Assembly: GCF_009914755.1 (NCBI RefSeq)
Contig: NC_060932.1
Source of the DNA: the human T2T-CHM13v2.0 reference genome, Homo sapiens
DNA: 64,000 bases
Direction: 5' to 3' (one strand)
The notes below the pieces were generated by a model that ran no database searches, was not told the origin of the DNA, and was given only the letters and a program-made list of their open reading frames with translations. The position numbers were made by a program, and so were the translations under genes. Numbering within the stretch: position 1 is the first letter of the stretch; each line of letters opens with the position of its first letter. This document shows positions 4,438 to 59,530 of this stretch, one piece after another.

Positions 4438-5742
4438 CCTCATGGATTTGTCTACCTTTGGTCTTTGCTGTTGGTGACCTTTGGATGGAGTTTTTGCATG
4501 GTCATCCTTTTTCTTGATGTTGATGCTATTGCTTTCTGTTTGTTAGTTTTCCTTCTGTCAGGCCCCTCTTCTGCAGGTGTGCTGGAGTTTTCTGGAGGTC
4601 CACTCCAGACCCTGTTTGCCTGGGTATTACCAGAGGTGGCTGCAGAACAGCAATTATTCCTACCTGCTCCTTCCTCTGGAAGCTTTGTCCCAGAGGGGCA
4701 CCCACCAGATGCCAGCCAGAGCTCTCCTGTATGAGGTGTCTGTCGCCCCCTGCTGGGAGGTGTCTCCCCATCAGGAGGCATGGAGTCAGGGACCCACTTG
4801 AGGAGGCAGTCTGTCCGTTAGCCGAGCTCCAGCACTTTGCAGGGAGACCCACTGGTGTATTCAGAGCCAGCAGGCAGAAACATTTAAGTCTGCTGAAGCC
4901 GCACCCACAGCCACCCCTTCCCCCAGGTGCTCTGTCCCAGGGAGATGGGAGTTTTATCTATAAGCCCCTGAATGGGTCTGCTGCCTTTCTTTCAAAGATG
5001 CCCTGCCCAGTGGCTTTGGGTGCTGTGGTGGGCTCCACCCAGTCTGAAATTCCTGGCAGCTTTGTTTACACTGTGAGGGGAAAACCACCTACTGAAGCCT
5101 CAGTAACGGTGGACGCCCCTTCCCCTACCAAGCTCAAGTGTCCCAGGTCAACTTCAGACTGCTGTGCTGGCAGTGAGAATTCCAAGCCAGTGGATCTTGG
5201 CTTGCTGGGCTCCCTAGGGGTGGGATTCGCTGAGCAAGACCACTTGGCTCCCTGGCTTCAGCCCCCTTTCCAGGGGAGTGAACGGTTCTGTCTCACTGGC
5301 ATTCCAGGTGCCACTGGGGTATGAAAAAAAATTCCTGCAGCTAGCTCGGTGTCTGCCCAAAGGGCCACCCAGTTTTGTGCTTGAAAACTAGGGCCCTTGT
5401 GGTGTAGGCACCCGAAGGAATATCCTGGTCTGTGGGTTGCGAAGACCATGGGAAAAGTGTAGTATCTGGGCTGGATAGCACTGTCCCTCACGACAAGGTC
5501 CCTCACGGCTTTCCTTGGCTAGGGGAGAGAGTTCTCCAATCCCTTGCACTTCCCGGGTGAGGCGACACCCCACCCTGCTTCTGCTCACCCTCCATAGGCT
5601 GCTCCCACTGTCTAACCAGTACCAGTGAGATGAACTGGCTACCCCACTTGAAAATCCAGAAATCACCTTCCTTCTGTATTGGTCTCATTGGGAGCTGCAG
5701 ACCAGAACTATTCCTATTTGGCCATCTTGCCCAGGAATCCCC
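4438..5742 (-). promoter_or_regulatory. L1 5' UTR with sense promoter (YY1 site 5720-5729) and antisense promoter region
   Basis: GC-richer block. CAAGATGGCC YY1 motif is intact on the minus strand; many CpGs have decayed, so activity is unknown. Confidence 0.75.
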
Positions 5743-21332: not shown

Positions 21333-22241
21333 CCTGAAAGCAGTAGCGCTGGGATACGAATTTTGATTTTTCTGCTACAGACTCTTAACATAATGCTTTC
21401 TGAATCTTAATATTGCCATCAATAAATGAGTCAGTTTAAGTTTAGGTCTAGGTTTTCTTTAGCTCCAAAATTATTTTTCCAAAGGAACAAAGGCATAAGA
21501 TGAAAATTAAATACTCTAGTTGAAGCAGAGGTGGGATCCCAAAGTGTTCTCTGTCTAAGGCAGCTCACCTCTCCCCTGGATGCTCATGAGGACGTTCTCT
21601 AGAACCTGTAGGAATCTGTGGAACATTAAATGAAAACACCAGATGCTTGAGACTACTTTCAAAGTATTTTCCAGATCTATAAGTTACTGGTTAAAGTGAA
21701 GAAAAACATACATTTTTATGAAAGTTGGCAATAGGTTAACTTAAAAAAGAAGCAGAATGCTTGGCTGTTCTGCCTCTCTTTGATCTTCTCTGTTGAGTGG
21801 ATATGGTGTTTTAGTGCATTTACACACATATGCAGAGACTAAGCCATTATTTTAATAGCGATGTCTTACAACTGAAGAAACGTAAATACCAAACCTGACT
21901 CTTGAAAGGAAAACATACGGTAGACATAAATGTCATTTTTTTTTATCATTGGCTACTAATTTGTAACTCCCTTTTCTTTCATTGCTTCACTCAGGTTCAA
22001 GTTTCCCAGTAGCATCACTTTTCAAGATCGTAAAAAATTAATCCTATGTGAGTGGATGGCATCTCTTAGTTTATATACAAGTTTATCCTGCTCCTGCCAT
22101 TGTCTTAGGCAACATCACATCTGTCACAGTCCCGAATTTTAGTCCTCTGCTTTTTAGCCTCCTGGATGAAAAAAAAAAGGCAAGGAACAATCTGCTTCTG
22201 AAAACAGCTGTGGAAACATGTGGTCTAAGGGAACATGAAAA

Positions 22242-22530
22242 ATTCAATTCAGCAAATATATAGTGAGCATCTATTATGTGCAAGTCCCTGTGCTAGAGGC
22301 TTGCTGGTGGGGAAGGGAATATAAAGACAGGATCTCTGCCCCCAGGGAATCTCTCAGTGTTATGGGAAATACAAACATGTCACAACAGCCAAATTAAATG
22401 TAAATAAATAAAGTGCATGCTAAAAATTATTAGCTGTGAGGTTGAGAGAATGATTTGCTCTGAATGGCAGAATCTAGAATGGCATCTGAGCTGGACCTGA
22501 AGGGCAGGTGAAATGTGGGAAGAGTACCCA
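22242..22530 (-). mobile_element. L2 fragment
   Basis: ATTCAATTCAGCAAATAT ... GAGCATCTATTATGTGCAAG ... TGAGCTGGACCTGAAGG. Confidence 0.7.
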
Positions 22531-22839
22531 GGGTTCATAGTTATTTGGCCATTTGGTTTGAGTGAGTTTGGCCCAAGTCTTGGTTTTCATCGCAGTGCAC
22601 TCTTATTTTAAATCTTATTTCTGATGTGCCTGTCCTTGGCTTCAAGTAGTCATTCAATGATCAAGGGAGAAGTAGCAATGACATTGGAATAGCAACAAGA
22701 CAAGGGTGACACCGAATCTTTATTTTCTCCCTTTTTGTTTTCATGTACCAATGCAATCATTTCTATAAATACAGACCCCTTCAGATGGCTCAATACTGCC
22801 CCCTCTTTTTCCAGCCATACGACTTCCAAGTTTATGACT

Positions 22840-23430
22840 ACCTCCCTTCCATTTGAATTACTATAATGGTCTCCTAGATGTTCCCACCTCTTCTAGGTCT
22901 TGCTGTTTATTTTTTAAACTATTCTCCCCCAAGAAAGATCCACCAAGGTAGTTTCTATAATGGAAGAGTCTGATTCTATGATTCCGCAAGTTAAAACTTC
23001 TGAATTGCTACACATTACTTTCTGTATAAAACCCAAACTCTGGAAGACAGGGATTATCTGGTCTTTCACCCAGTCCCTAGATAGCTTTCTAAACTTATTC
23101 CCTGCAATTCCTCCACTTTCACCGTAGGCTACAACTGCACTGCTTGCAGGTCTCTCAATGGTTCATACTCTTTCTTGGTGCTTCATTTGAACAAAACCTT
23201 TGCCCGGGAGCTTTCCTCTTCCACCCCAACCTTTTGGTTGGCTAACTCTTTTGTCCCCTGGGTTCCTGTTTAGATATTGCTTATTCCTAGAGGCCTTCAC
23301 TGACCTCCACATCTAGACTAAATCCCTCTCCTATGGGATCCCACAGTCCTGTGCAGTTATTCTCATTGCAGCCCATATTGTTCTGTATTATATTTGCTTG
23401 CTTACTTATCTCTATCAGCTATAAGACTGG
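22840..23430 (+). mobile_element. L2 fragment
   Basis: Pyrimidine-rich L2 3' motifs, e.g. ATAAAACCCAAACTC and AGGCCTTCACTGACC. Confidence 0.6.
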
Positions 23431-23593
23431 GATTGTGTTTGTGAAGGAAGGAAAGAAGTCAAGGCAGTAGAAATTAAACCCACTTCTCCTTGTCTAGATC
23501 TATATCAGCTATAAGACTGGCATTGTGTTTTGTGAAGGAAGGAAAGAAGTTAGTCAAGGCAGTAGAAATTAAACGCACTTCTCCTTGTCTAGA
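23408..23593. repeat. Two-copy tandem duplication, ~90-bp unit
   Basis: TATCAGCTATAAGACTGG ... CTTCTCCTTGTCTAGA at 23413-23498 and 23503-23593. Confidence 0.97.
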
Positions 23594-24010
23594 AGGCAAT
23601 GCAGAAATACTATGCAGCGGTAGATGCTAAATAATGCACATCTGATTTTAAAAAGTCTTTTTCAGGGAATTATAGTTCATTGGAAATAAATTGGTAGGTC
23701 ACCCTTCCCTACATTAAAGATGGAAAGTGTAATGAGAGTGAATAAATGTCTCTTTATGTCATTAAAACTTTACTGTTAATTTATTCTCTAGACCTTATAT
23801 TGTAACACAATACCTTTTCCCCCCAAGACTAACATAGGTTTATCAGCCATTCTAGAGGGAAAACTGCATAAGCAATTCTGGGTTCCCAATATTCCACAAG
23901 TTTTTAAAAAATGTTTGTTTTTAGTATGTGTGTTGACATTAGTGTTGATAGAGAAAACGGGGATATTTAACTGCAGAAAGAAATAAATTTGAAACTTAGA
24001 CCTCTTCTCA

Positions 24011-24103
24011 ATTATCATTTCAGACAAAGTACCACGTAACCAAATTAAGAATGAAACTCAAATTCTTAATTTGGTTACGTGGTACTTTGTCTGAAATGAT
24101 AAT
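24011..24103. repeat. Perfect inverted repeat, 42-bp arms and 9-nt spacer
   Basis: 24011-24052 ATTATCATTTCAGACAAAGTACCACGTAACCAAATTAAGAAT is the exact reverse complement of 24062-24103. Confidence 0.98.
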
Positions 24104-24220
24104 GTTTTAGGACAATTTTGAGAAATGTTCTGCTATTGATCCTTATTCACTGGGTAGGACTGACTGTAATAAAGTTTATAATTAGCAATCAAATAAATAT
24201 TATTTAATAAAATAACTTTC

Positions 24221-24802
24221 ATGGAATCAACATAAGTATCCATCAATGATAAATGGAGAAAGAAAATGTGGTACATATACACAATGAAATATTATTCTGC
24301 CATAAAAAAGAATGTAATCTTGCCATTTGCAGCAACATGGATGGATCTGGAGGTCATTTGGTAAATGAAATAAGTCAGGCACAGAAAGACAAATGTTGCA
24401 TGTTCTCACTCATATATGGGAGTGAAAAAACTGGATCTCATGGAAGTACCACATACAATGTAGGTTACCAGAGGCTGTGAAGGGAAGAGGGAAAAGGGGA
24501 TGAAAAGAAATTGCTTAAGAGGTACAAAAATACAGTTAGATAGAAGGATAGTTAGATAGAACTTTTAGTATTCGATAGTACACTAGGGAACGTATAGTTA
24601 AAATTTGTTGTTTATTTAAAAATAGCTAGAAGAGAGGATTTGTAATGTTCCCAACACAAAGAAAAAAATAAATGTTTGTCAGGATGAATATCCCAATTAC
24701 CCTGATTTGATCATCACACATTGTATACAGGTATCAAAAATACTATGTGTACCTTCAAAATATGTACAAGTATTATATATCAATTTTAAAAATTAAATAA
24801 AT
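24221..24802 (+). mobile_element. L1MA 3' end
   Basis: ATGGAATCAAC ... AAGAAAATGTGGTACATATACACAATG ... CCCAATTACCCTGATTTGATCAT ... A-rich tail. Confidence 0.9.
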
Positions 24803-26993
24803 TAATCAACTTTCCTTTAAAGTATTTAAGGCATCATCTTGTGCATTTTTTCATTGAATTTGCCTAAATCCTCTGACTCCCATTGATATCTTTTAGCATC
24901 CAGGATTATAGCTCTACATTAACAAGAGGTTAGTGCTAGCTCTTGGCAGATTTTATTATGTAATTTTTCTTTAACTATTCAGGGCTTCAGCTTGACTAGA
25001 ATCTCAGCAACCTCTCACTGTTTCAAACGGCAATGCCTTTCATCAAGAATAAGGACATTAAAGGGAAAAAAATGACAAAAAAATAAAATGAAACATGTGT
25101 TTTAAGAGATTTGAATAAGATATTTTAGTAAGCCAATTTCATGTCACCATCTTGAAAATTTACAGCAGTCAGCAATGTAAACATGTACTTGACAAACACC
25201 AGCAGCTTGCAGACTGCAAAGTTCATCTACTCATTCAGCGAGGCAGATGTTTCATTTAATACTCTTCATACTATAGATTAGGATTATTTTTTTTTCTTTT
25301 CCTCTTTTTTTTTTTTTTTGAAAGGAGAGGGGGAAAAAATTCCCTGACATGCTACTAATATCATCTCACACTGTGGGCCAGATGGTGAAAAATGCAAAGG
25401 CTGCAGCTCAGTTTATGTACTATATTGTGGGGGGAAAAGGAATTTTGTTTCAGAATGAGTTTCAGCTTGATCATTTGTTGCTGTAATCTAAACATGAGTC
25501 AATGAGAAAAGTAGTACCAGTCGAACTTCAAAAAGTTATTGAGAGTAAGTGCTTTAAAATGCAATGCATCTGGAGGAAGCGCCTACAGCAATTCAATCTA
25601 CCACATCTAGAAGAAACAGAGGATGAGAAACTTGGGTAGTTGGTTTCATGAAGGACCCTTCACAAAGACAGTTGACCAAAGAAAAACTTACATATTATCA
25701 TTACGTCATTGGGTTTTGGATGAAGATTTTCTGAATGTTTTTCTCTTCTGCTTTTCACGTTGTTTGTATCGTTTGCATTTAGGACTATGGCCAGCTTTAG
25801 AGCTATGTCTATTTACCTGCACTTTGTGGTTAATAATTTTGGAGAATAAAAAACTAACTGTTAAGCTCCTAGTCTTTAAACGTTGATATTTGAAGGGAAA
25901 TCAGAAATCGCCCAGCTCCACTTCTTTATCTGTATGAGGCAATGGAAGCCCAGAAGGGATAAAAATCTTGGTAATATGTGCTCCTCTGGCAGATTGGGAA
26001 ATAAATGAAAGCAATCACTGTCCGGCATCGATGATCTGTTATACTGTGGAAATTCCACAGCTTTTTATCAGATTTTTAAATAGAGCCACAGCCCCAGTAA
26101 TCTTGTGAATAAGCAGAGTCTGCCTGTATTGTTGTTTTGAGTATTAATTATTCACATCCTATGGCTTTTCCATGGGCGTTTTCACCACTTGTAGAATAGG
26201 AAACAAACAGGAACAGGTCAAAGACACCAAACCCCTGTGATTTTCCTAATTGAAGGTTTGATTTAAATCATGCGGGTCGGGGAGGCAGGGCTCTGTTATT
26301 CAAATGCAAAGGGGCAAATTTTTATGTTGGGAATAAGCTCATCTACTGGGCAATGGTTCTGACCGCCTTTACCCATGTACGTGTCAGAGAAGCATCCAAC
26401 CATGATCACTTCTTAGTAGGGCAGGCAGATATTCCACCTTTGTAACGGTGCCCTAACATGCCAATGCCTTTTTCATTTTCTTTTGTTTTATCTCTCTTAT
26501 CTCTTTTATGATCTTTTATGATCCGGAAAACTTTTACTAACATGCTATTAGCCTTCCCCAATGTTCCCGCTTCTCAAATTGTTAAAGAAAAATTTGTCTT
26601 CGGCTACTTAACATCCCTGCTCCTCTTCTCTCCTAAGGATAGTCTAGGATTTGCTGGCCTGATATTCAGGCATTTTGTAATGCTGAATCACGAGAATGGA
26701 AAGAGACATACAGAAACAGGAAGAAAAGAAGAAAAGGGTAAGGATTCTAGATTGCTGGGTCTAGTCTAGACTTTATTGAGGATAATCTGGATCATTGGAA
26801 AGTAGAGAGGGCATTTTAAAGAACTCAGGAAGGCTAAGACGTTGTACATATGAGAGTTAGGATGGAGAGAGAGAGAACCATGGCAAGATGTGCGAGAGAA
26901 ATTGGCAAGAGGGTCCAGATGAAAGGCTAAGGAGAAGCTATGAGATGGAGAATTGGGGAGAAAGGGAAGATAGTTTAAGAAATATTGCTGTGA

Positions 26994-50809: not shown

Positions 50810-50858
<49 letters not shown>
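50810..50858. repeat. Pure (TA)24 microsatellite
   Basis: Uninterrupted TA run. Confidence 0.97.
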
Positions 50859-59309: not shown

Positions 59310-59530
59310 TTAATATTTTTAGTGCTTACTCTGTGGTACCACAGAGTGATGGGTAGAAGGGCCGTATGGTACCACAGAGTAACCACTGCAAATGTCATTT
59401 ACTAGCATTCATCCATTTAACTCTAAATGCAATACACATTTTACAGTTAAAGAAACTGAGGTATCATGGGGTTAAATGACTCACCCAGTTTCCTATTGCT
59501 AGAGGTAGCAGCATTGGAAGTCTAGCTCTA
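59310..59530 (-). mobile_element. MIR interrupted by a palindromic rearrangement
   Basis: AGTGCTTACTCTGTG ... CATTTTACAGTTAAAGAAACTGAGG ... GGTTAAATGACTCACCCA. Confidence 0.75.

What the first reader, a model, noticed from the sequence alone, without database searches (positions are those of the whole stretch)
24011..24103. Perfect 42-bp fold-back hairpin in non-repeat DNA: candidate newly born miRNA-like precursor or cruciform
Seen: two 42-bp arms with no mismatch around a 9-nt loop (GAAACTCAA), 93 nt in total, made of complex sequence. The mutable CpG (CCACGTAA/TTACGTGG) is intact in both arms. I see no TSD and no resemblance to MADE1 or MER termini. Established: replication template switching can create a perfect inverted repeat in one step, Drosha/DGCR8 prefers stems of about 35 bp, and such repeats extrude cruciforms. 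Inference: a very young, possibly lineage-specific or polymorphic hairpin that would fold equally well from either strand. It lies between the two best + strand candidate exons, so it could be intronic.
Basis: partly seen in the sequence, partly recalled or inferred. Interest (0 to 1): 0.8.

Follow-up and report, generated by a model that had tools for sequence, protein, structure and literature searches.

The report
Unique perfect 42-bp hairpin repeat
A real, one-of-a-kind 93-base perfect fold-back sits in a gene-poor stretch of human chromosome 8; it looks like the product of a single DNA copying slip, and nothing seen here suggests it is a working microRNA gene.

Summary
Arms 24011-24052 and 24062-24103 are 42 nt and 100% complementary around the 9-nt spacer GAAACTCAA.

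It is far beyond chance:
- In the 64-kb window the next-longest complex perfect inverted repeat has 16-nt arms. Ten shuffles reach only 11-12.
- In 200 kb of random CHM13 DNA the maximum is 16.

The arm occurs nowhere else in CHM13 at up to 3 mismatches. Queries of 93, 193 and 931 nt hit only themselves. A neighbouring L1 piece used as control gave 5,052 candidates. A multi-copy MITE is therefore unlikely.

The layout (template arm, short spacer, perfect reverse-complement copy, sharp ends) matches the 3-2-1-4/1-4-3-2 template-switch products described in great apes. Polarity and age need orthologues, which no tool here holds.

The miRNA reading is unsupported:
- No Rfam family reaches its threshold.
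- The stem is 42 bp, not about 35, and the loop is 9 nt.
- The UG, UGU/GUG and CNNC motifs are absent at their canonical places on both strands.
- No gene is annotated in the window.
- Only 0.9% of comparable genic hairpins are miRBase loci.

Perfect arms allow an age up to roughly 25-50 My, so "very young" is not required. This is an ordinary member of a known kind.

The parts
24011..24052 (.). Left arm of the perfect inverted repeat (42 nt). CpG at 24035-24036.
   Evidence: In CHM13 it occurs only here and as the reverse complement in the right arm, at up to 3 mismatches.
24053..24061 (.). 9-nt asymmetric spacer/loop GAAACTCAA. It is not self-complementary, so it offers no microhomology for snap-back priming.
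   Evidence: Inspection of the loop bases shows G/A, A/A and A/C mismatches. The central 31 nt (24042-24072) are 84% A+T.
24062..24103 (.). Right arm, the exact reverse complement of the left arm (42 nt). CpG at 24078-24079.
24104..24220 (.). 117 nt of single-copy spacer DNA between the hairpin and the neighbouring L1 fragment. This is context only and shows that the hairpin is not part of the L1.
   Evidence: Queries 23961-24153 and 23300-24230 matched only themselves. Homology of 8 of 8 L1 copies begins at 24221-24223.

Best explanation
The 93-nt element is a single-copy inverted duplication made in one step. A DNA polymerase copying this AT-rich intergenic DNA left its template 9 nt past a 42-nt stretch and copied that stretch from the complementary or nascent strand. 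This wrote its exact reverse complement. The polymerase then returned to the original template. In the four-point model this is a short-range template switch of type 3-2-1-4, or 1-4-3-2 if read from the other side. The product is a perfect, sharply bounded inverted repeat. It has gathered no substitution since, either because it is younger than a few tens of millions of years or because later switches re-homogenised the arms. It is most likely selectively neutral. Its expected consequences are physical: hairpin formation on single-stranded DNA at replication, possible cruciform extrusion under negative supercoiling (helped by the 84% A+T centre), and a raised risk of local deletion. Shown here: the repeat, its statistical extremity, its uniqueness in the genome and its position outside the L1. 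Inferred: the mechanism, the neutrality and the structural consequences.
For: The repeat is perfect, has sharp ends and lies 9 nt from its copy. It is far beyond chance and beyond the local background: arm 42 against 16 for the next-longest complex repeat in 64 kb, 11-12 in 10 of 10 shuffles, and 16 in 200 kb of random genome. It is single-copy: the arm pattern at up to 3 mismatches gave 1 forward and 1 reverse match, which are the two arms themselves, and the reversed control gave 0. Queries of 93, 193 and 931 nt gave 1 first-look candidate each, all self. The adjacent 196-nt L1 piece gave 5,052 candidates, with 40 scored at 84-88% identity, so the search can see repeats of that divergence. 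Internal clock: the 95-nt tandem duplication 420-600 nt upstream is 91% matched (82 of 89 bases identical) and the L1 is about 85% identical to its copies. The neighbourhood therefore decays normally, while the arms differ at 0 of 42. [quoted passage not shown] It also acts where there was no pre-existing similarity (section 6). [quoted passage not shown] Human events reach 90 bp in complex sequence and 318 bp overall (PMC9435742 passages). 53,666 putative events were found in genic DNA on the primate-to-human lineage, and 31,007 of them formed new stems (PMC10710096 section 9).
Against: No orthologue or second human haplotype could be examined, so the defining evidence (an ancestor with one arm only) is missing and the polarity is unknown. 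The 9-nt spacer has no self-complementarity, so simple intra-strand snap-back priming has no visible microhomology. The locus is not among 4,016 published significant human/chimpanzee/gorilla events: there is no chr8 row between 92.9 and 93.3 Mb of GRCh38 (my GRCh38 position of about 93.08 Mb rests on a recalled coordinate of MIR8084). It was also not found in the parts searched of the supplements of PMC9435742 (files 2-12 of 22) or PMC5453318 (7 of 8 files). That absence fits an event older than the gorilla split, or one removed by their filters, but it is not positive support. The own-genome search would miss repeat copies much below about 80% identity, and no Dfam library was available.
Confidence: 0.7

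Rival explanations
1. An old inverted repeat, possibly once imperfect, has been kept perfect. Either repeated quasi-palindrome correction (template switching between existing arms) or selection on a DNA-level palindrome, such as a dimeric protein site or a structural element, would do this.
For: [quoted passage not shown] Conversion of near-perfect to perfect repeats is the classical form of the mechanism, and Walker et al. say their method misses it (PMC7954356 passage). That would also explain why the locus is absent from their list.
Against: There is no decayed extension of the repeat beyond the sharp ends. No annotated functional element lies nearer than the enhancer at 4664-4843 (hub annotation). 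The region is AT-rich, single-copy and gene-poor.
Confidence: 0.12
2. A solitary miniature inverted-repeat transposon: an 85-bp element at 24015-24099 with 38-bp terminal repeats, flanked by a TA target-site duplication that is hidden because TA is palindromic.
For: TA lies at 24013-24014 and 24100-24101. The size and the near-total palindromy resemble MADE1-type elements (recalled). With recalled rates, unchanged arms after about 40 My still have a probability of roughly 0.01-0.1 (rates).
Against: No second copy is found in 3.1 Gb at up to 3 mismatches or with the 93-, 193- and 931-nt queries, whereas the L1 control found thousands. Two further palindromic bases outside the putative TA would have to be chance. 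The termini do not resemble Tc1/mariner or hAT ends as I recall them. No library test was possible.
Confidence: 0.05
3. A functional small-RNA gene. The hairpin is transcribed and cut by Drosha/Dicer, or by Dicer alone as an endo-siRNA-type hairpin, into ~22-nt RNAs. This concerns function and does not exclude a template-switch origin.
For: The RNA hairpin is very stable on both strands. At least 18 human miRNA genes are attributed to template switching (PMC10710096 abstract). On the + strand a T4 run follows the stem directly (24105-24108) and there is no T4 inside the hairpin.
Against: No Rfam family reaches its gathering score. The stem is 42 bp and fully paired and the loop is 9 nt, against the preferred 35 bp and 10 nt or more. 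UG, UGU/GUG and CNNC are absent at the canonical places on both strands. No gene or transcript is annotated in the window. Only 57 of 6,054 (0.9%) size-matched genic template-switch hairpins are miRBase loci, and a promoter is described as the limiting factor. A 17-nt core of the arm occurs in no searchable paper text (supplements are not covered).
Confidence: 0.02
4. An assembly or sequencing artefact: a fold-back introduced during library preparation or consensus building, absent from the real chromosome.
For: Inverted repeats are reported to bias long-read sequencing. I saw this only in the title and abstract of bioRxiv 10.64898/2026.07.13.738322 in the listing.
Against: This is only 93 bp inside ordinary unique sequence. 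The fold-back read artefacts I know of act at read scale, not at 42 bp, and CHM13 was polished with several technologies (both points recalled). Nothing in the flanks is disturbed.
Confidence: 0.03

Closest known systems
Short-range template-switch mutation products (four-point model of Loytynoja & Goldman; types 3-2-1-4 / 1-4-3-2)
   Same: A perfect reverse-complement copy lies a few bases from its template. Both are complex sequence containing all four bases, have sharp borders and form a single new inverted repeat able to make a hairpin. The length lies within the reported range.
   Different: The ancestral state was not observed here. The locus is not in the published great-ape or human lists that I could search. 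At 42 bp it is longer than most rows I saw in the first of 28 parts of the published BED file, which span 0-48 bp.
Template-switch-born primate miRNA genes (e.g. hsa-mir-4731, named in PMC10710096 section 6)
   Same: The proposed birth mechanism is the same, and the total hairpin size is similar at about 90 nt.
   Different: Those loci have expression evidence, mostly lie in introns or other transcribed DNA, and 105 of 111 have acquired mutations after the event. This hairpin is intergenic, unannotated and fully paired, is 7 bp longer than the preferred stem, and lacks the processing motifs.
MADE1-type MITEs (Tc1/mariner-derived palindromic elements)
   Same: A short, almost wholly palindromic element, with a possible TA at each end.
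   Different: It is single-copy in the genome. MITE families have many copies. No terminal-repeat similarity could be tested against a library.
Catalogued cruciform/hairpin-forming perfect inverted repeats of the human genome (invertiaDB, non-B DB)
   Same: Perfect arms of 10 bp or more, a short spacer and an AT-rich centre. This class is reported as depleted and unstable when long (PMC12019632 passage).
   Different: The 9-nt spacer is one base over the invertiaDB cut-off of 8, so it would not be listed there. The arms of 42 nt are well below the ten largest human cases of 80-140 nt, which are mostly very AT-rich (8 of the 10 have GC below 26%), whereas this one is complex sequence.

Membership tests
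Template-switch mutation product (3-2-1-4 / 1-4-3-2) | A stretch that is the exact reverse complement of nearby sequence (within tens to hundreds of nt) | tested here: met
   42 of 42 bases complementary, with the template 9 nt away.
Template-switch mutation product (3-2-1-4 / 1-4-3-2) | The copied fragment contains all four nucleotides and the donor is not low-complexity or repeat-masked (filters of PMC7954356) | tested here: met
   Complex sequence. No tandem repeat over it. No other genomic copy. RepeatMasker itself was not run.
Template-switch mutation product (3-2-1-4 / 1-4-3-2) | The ancestral or outgroup sequence lacks the copy, and the four-point model explains the difference better than substitutions and indels | not testable with these tools
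   No primate genome or second human assembly is held. Published lists hold no chr8 event at 92.9-93.3 Mb.
Canonical animal miRNA precursor | Match to a curated miRNA family | tested here: not met
   Rfam 15: the best are mir-983 at 57.8 bits against 100 and MIR774 at 52.1 against 80. None of the 12 listed matches reaches its gathering score. miRBase and MirGeneDB are not held.
Canonical animal miRNA precursor | Stem of about 35 bp with an apical loop of 10 nt or more (PMC10710096) | tested here: not met
   42-bp fully paired stem and 9-nt loop.
Canonical animal miRNA precursor | Processing motifs: basal UG, apical UGU/GUG, downstream CNNC (definitions recalled) | tested here: not met
   None at the canonical place on either strand under the 11- or 13-bp basal rule.
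Canonical animal miRNA precursor | ~22-nt reads from both arms with 2-nt 3' overhangs | not testable with these tools
   No small-RNA data are held. A 17-nt core is absent from searchable paper texts.
MITE / DNA transposon | Multiple dispersed copies in the genome | tested here: not met
   Only the locus itself is found. The control L1 piece gave 5,052 candidates. Copies below about 80% identity could be missed.
MITE / DNA transposon | Target-site duplication flanking the terminal inverted repeats | tested here: inconclusive
   No direct repeat lies outside the arms. A TA at 24013-14 and 24100-01 could be a hidden palindromic duplication.
Cruciform-forming inverted repeat | Perfect arms of 10 bp or more with a short spacer | tested here: met
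   42-bp arms and a 9-nt spacer. DNA hairpin -45.6 kcal/mol, z -17. The spacer exceeds the cut-off of 8 used by invertiaDB.
Cruciform-forming inverted repeat | Extrusion or hairpin formation in cells | not testable with these tools
   This needs structure probing. A 29-bp perfect repeat is reported to stimulate breaks and deletions in mammalian cells (PMC12872147 passage).

The most novel reading that the evidence does not exclude
The hairpin is a hominid- or human-specific template-switch product caught with no substitution since its birth. It is transcribed, perhaps from both strands, and diced into siRNA-like or miRNA-like small RNAs. That would make it a small-RNA gene at the moment of origin, and possibly still polymorphic in people.
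Probability: 0.02. Interest if true: 0.6.

Novelty: new member of a known kind. Interest (0 to 1): 0.25.

Why it matters
If orthologues confirm a one-step birth, this would be an unusually clean and long (42 bp) example of a template-switch hairpin in complex, single-copy DNA. It would be useful as a test case for callers of such events and for studies of how perfect inverted repeats decay or cause deletions. By itself it changes nothing. Tens of thousands of such events are already described on the human lineage, and under 1% of the size-matched genic ones became annotated miRNA loci.

Tried and rejected
1. Rfam scan of 22000-26000 at E<=10. It gave only sub-threshold, structure-driven matches to fly and plant miRNA families, a plasmid sRNA and a hammerhead model. 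I rejected these as family membership.

2. L1 relation. The L1-like repeat begins at 24221-24223 in 8 of 8 aligned copies, so the hairpin is not L1 sequence or a twin-priming inversion.

3. Relation to MIR8084, 23 kb upstream. Its 89-nt annotated hairpin folds weakly (-15.8 kcal/mol, z -1.7, 12 of 200 shuffles as stable), and by eye I saw no likeness to the arms.

4. Exact-arm scans of genome contigs and viral contigs, looking for stray human DNA as an independent copy: 0 and 0.

5. Published event lists. PMC7954356 supplementary file s015 (4,016 rows) has no chr8 row at 92.9-93.3 Mb. In PMC9435742, supplement files 2-12 had no hit, and files 1 and 13-22 were not searched. In PMC5453318, 7 of 8 files had no chr8 hit. 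The supplements of PMC10710096 were listed but not read.

6. A larger random genome sample for a base rate. Only 200 kb of the planned 1 Mb could be fetched, so 0 repeats of 30 bp or more in 200 kb gives only a loose bound.

8. Snap-back microhomology in the loop: none was seen by eye.

9. Pol III reading. A T4 run follows the stem on the + strand, but I saw no convincing upstream promoter element by eye. I did not pursue this.

Full report
OBSERVATION

The window holds a perfect inverted repeat at exactly the reported place. The arms are 24011-24052 and 24062-24103, 42 nt each and 100% complementary, around the 9-nt spacer GAAACTCAA. Pairing ends sharply, because 24010 A faces 24104 G. Both CpGs are intact, at 24035 and 24078.

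The sequence is complex. Arm GC is 29% and Tandem Repeats Finder reports nothing over it.

Folding results:
- As RNA, a 133-nt context folds to -68.8 kcal/mol on the + strand (z -15.3) and -65.8 on the - strand (z -14.0). In each case 0 of 200 shuffles folded as well.
- As DNA it folds to -45.6 kcal/mol (z -17.0, 0 of 200).

CHANCE AND BACKGROUND

I counted all perfect inverted repeats with arms of 10 nt or more and spacers up to 100 nt in the window. There are 57. Thirty of them are shifted registers of one (AT)n tract at 50810-50858. Among the other 27 the next-longest arm is 16 nt, at 59326-59382. Ten dinucleotide-preserving shuffles of the whole window gave longest arms of 11 or 12.

In 200,000 bases taken at random from the same assembly (20 stretches of 10 kb), the longest arm was 16 and only two repeats had arms of 14 or more. 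The sample therefore bounds the genome-wide frequency only loosely.

A published survey of perfect repeats with spacers up to 8 nt lists the ten largest human cases at 80-140 nt arms, eight of the ten with GC below 26% (supplementary table 4 of PMC13155455). So 42 nt is unusual but not extreme. With a 9-nt spacer, this repeat falls just outside that survey's definition.

IS IT A COPY OF SOMETHING?

The window is chr8:94,178,001-94,242,000 of T2T-CHM13, and the whole assembly could be searched.
- The 42-nt arm at up to 3 mismatches occurs once forward and once reverse. These are the two arms themselves, and the reversed control pattern gave none.
- Queries of 93, 193 and 931 nt each produced a single first-look candidate, the locus itself.
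- As a positive control, the adjacent 196 nt (24225-24420) produced 5,052 candidates. The 40 that were scored were 84-88% identical. The search therefore does see interspersed repeats of that age.
- That neighbour is an L1-like fragment. In 8 of 8 copies fetched with 400 nt of upstream sequence, homology to the window begins at 24221-24223. The hairpin therefore lies 118 nt outside the 5'-truncated L1 and is not part of it.

A multi-copy MITE is thus unlikely, although copies much below about 80% identity could be missed and no Dfam library was on hand.

TA lies at 24013-14 and at 24100-01. Because TA is palindromic, a TA duplication could be hidden inside the repeat.

MECHANISM

The anatomy is a template stretch, a short asymmetric spacer, an exact reverse-complement copy, sharp borders and no second copy in the genome. 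This is what short-range template switching is reported to produce.
[quoted passage not shown] Its section 6 states that it also acts where no similarity pre-existed.
- Passages of PMC9435742 report human events up to 318 bp, and up to 90 bp in complex sequence.

I therefore read the locus as a 3-2-1-4 (or mirror-image) event with a copied fragment of 42 nt.

There is an internal clock of sorts. The 95-nt tandem duplication at 23408-23593 is 91% matched (82 of 89 bases). The L1 is about 85% identical to its relatives. The two arms differ at 0 of 42 positions. So the hairpin is younger than its neighbours, or its arms have been re-homogenised, which the same mechanism can do (PMC8794818 abstract).

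AGE

I used recalled rates: 0.5-1.0e-9 substitutions per site per year, and ten times that at the four CpG positions. The probability that all 84 paired bases are unchanged is then 0.5 at about 6-12 My and 0.05 at about 25-50 My. Perfection therefore does not by itself make the repeat 'very young' or polymorphic.

The published list of 4,016 significant human/chimpanzee/gorilla events holds no chr8 row between 92.9 and 93.3 Mb of GRCh38. My estimate of about 93.08 Mb for the hairpin rests on a recalled GRCh38 coordinate of MIR8084, which is why I searched a wide interval. The supplements of two further papers gave no hit in the files that could be searched.

This absence fits an event older than the gorilla split, or one lost to their filters (a 50-nt deletion threshold and alignment quality). 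It does not decide between them.

WHAT COUNTS AGAINST THE READING

- No ancestor was seen, and that is the defining evidence.
- The spacer has no self-complementarity, so simple snap-back priming lacks visible microhomology. An inter-strand switch does not need it.
- An old repeat kept perfect, a solitary MITE or an assembly error are not excluded. I give them 0.12, 0.05 and 0.03.

THE miRNA READING

- None of the 12 Rfam matches at E<=10 reaches its family's gathering score. The best are mir-983 (fly) at 57.8 bits against 100 and MIR774 (plant) at 52.1 against 80. Their alignments are carried by the generic long stem.
- The stem is 42 bp and fully paired and the loop is 9 nt. The stated preference is a 35-bp stem and a loop of 10 nt or more.
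- Under either an 11- or a 13-bp basal rule there is no UG at the basal junction, no UGU or GUG at the apical junction and no CNNC at the canonical distance, on either strand (the motif definitions are recalled).
- The hub's annotation lists no gene in the window, so 'intronic' is not supported.
- The base rate is low even where transcription is available. Of 6,054 size-matched template-switch hairpins in human genic regions, 57 (0.9%) are miRBase loci, and a promoter is named as the limiting factor (section 9 of PMC10710096).
- A 17-nt core of the arm occurs in no searchable paper text. Supplements are not covered by that search.
- MIR8084, 23 kb upstream, is an unrelated and weakly folding hairpin.

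I put the small-RNA-gene reading at about 0.02.

THE CRUCIFORM READING

This part is reasonable as physics but untested. The arms are long and perfect, the spacer is short and the central 31 nt are 84% A+T.

A passage of PMC12872147 reports that a 29-bp perfect repeat stimulates double-strand breaks and deletions in yeast and mammalian cells. [quoted passage not shown] The most likely consequence of this element is therefore a modestly raised local risk of deletion, not a function.

VERDICT

The best explanation is a neutral, single-copy inverted duplication made by one template switch (confidence 0.7). It is a new member of a known and numerous kind. The decisive test, alignment of ape and monkey orthologues and of human pangenome haplotypes, could not be run here.

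Noticed in passing
window 23408-23593: Tandem duplication of a 95-nt unit: 2.0 copies, 91% matches, 5% indels. It lies about 420 nt upstream of the hairpin in otherwise single-copy DNA. I used it only as a local divergence clock.
   Followed up: partly
window 24221 onwards (+ strand), at least to 24420: A 5'-truncated L1-like fragment. It gave 5,052 first-look candidates in the assembly, 40 of them scored at 84-88% identity. The homology boundary is at 24221-24223 in 8 of 8 copies. The right-hand end was not mapped.
   Followed up: partly
window 50810-50858: An (AT)n microsatellite of about 49 nt. It is itself a spacer-less perfect palindrome and accounts for 30 of the 57 inverted repeats counted in the window.
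   Followed up: no
window 59326-59382: The second-longest complex perfect inverted repeat in the window: 16-nt arms (TTACTCTGTGGTACCA) with a 25-nt spacer. This is above the 11-12 reached in shuffles.
   Followed up: no
L014:101-189 (CHM13 chr8:94,154,634-94,154,722; annotated MIR8084): The annotated miRNA hairpin 23 kb upstream folds only weakly: -15.8 kcal/mol, z -1.7, and 12 of 200 shuffles fold at least as well.
   Followed up: partly
window 24104-24108: On the + strand the stem is followed directly by GTTTT, and there is no run of four T inside the hairpin. That is the layout of a Pol III short-hairpin cassette. I saw no convincing upstream promoter element by eye, and in 30% GC DNA this is probably chance.
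   Followed up: no
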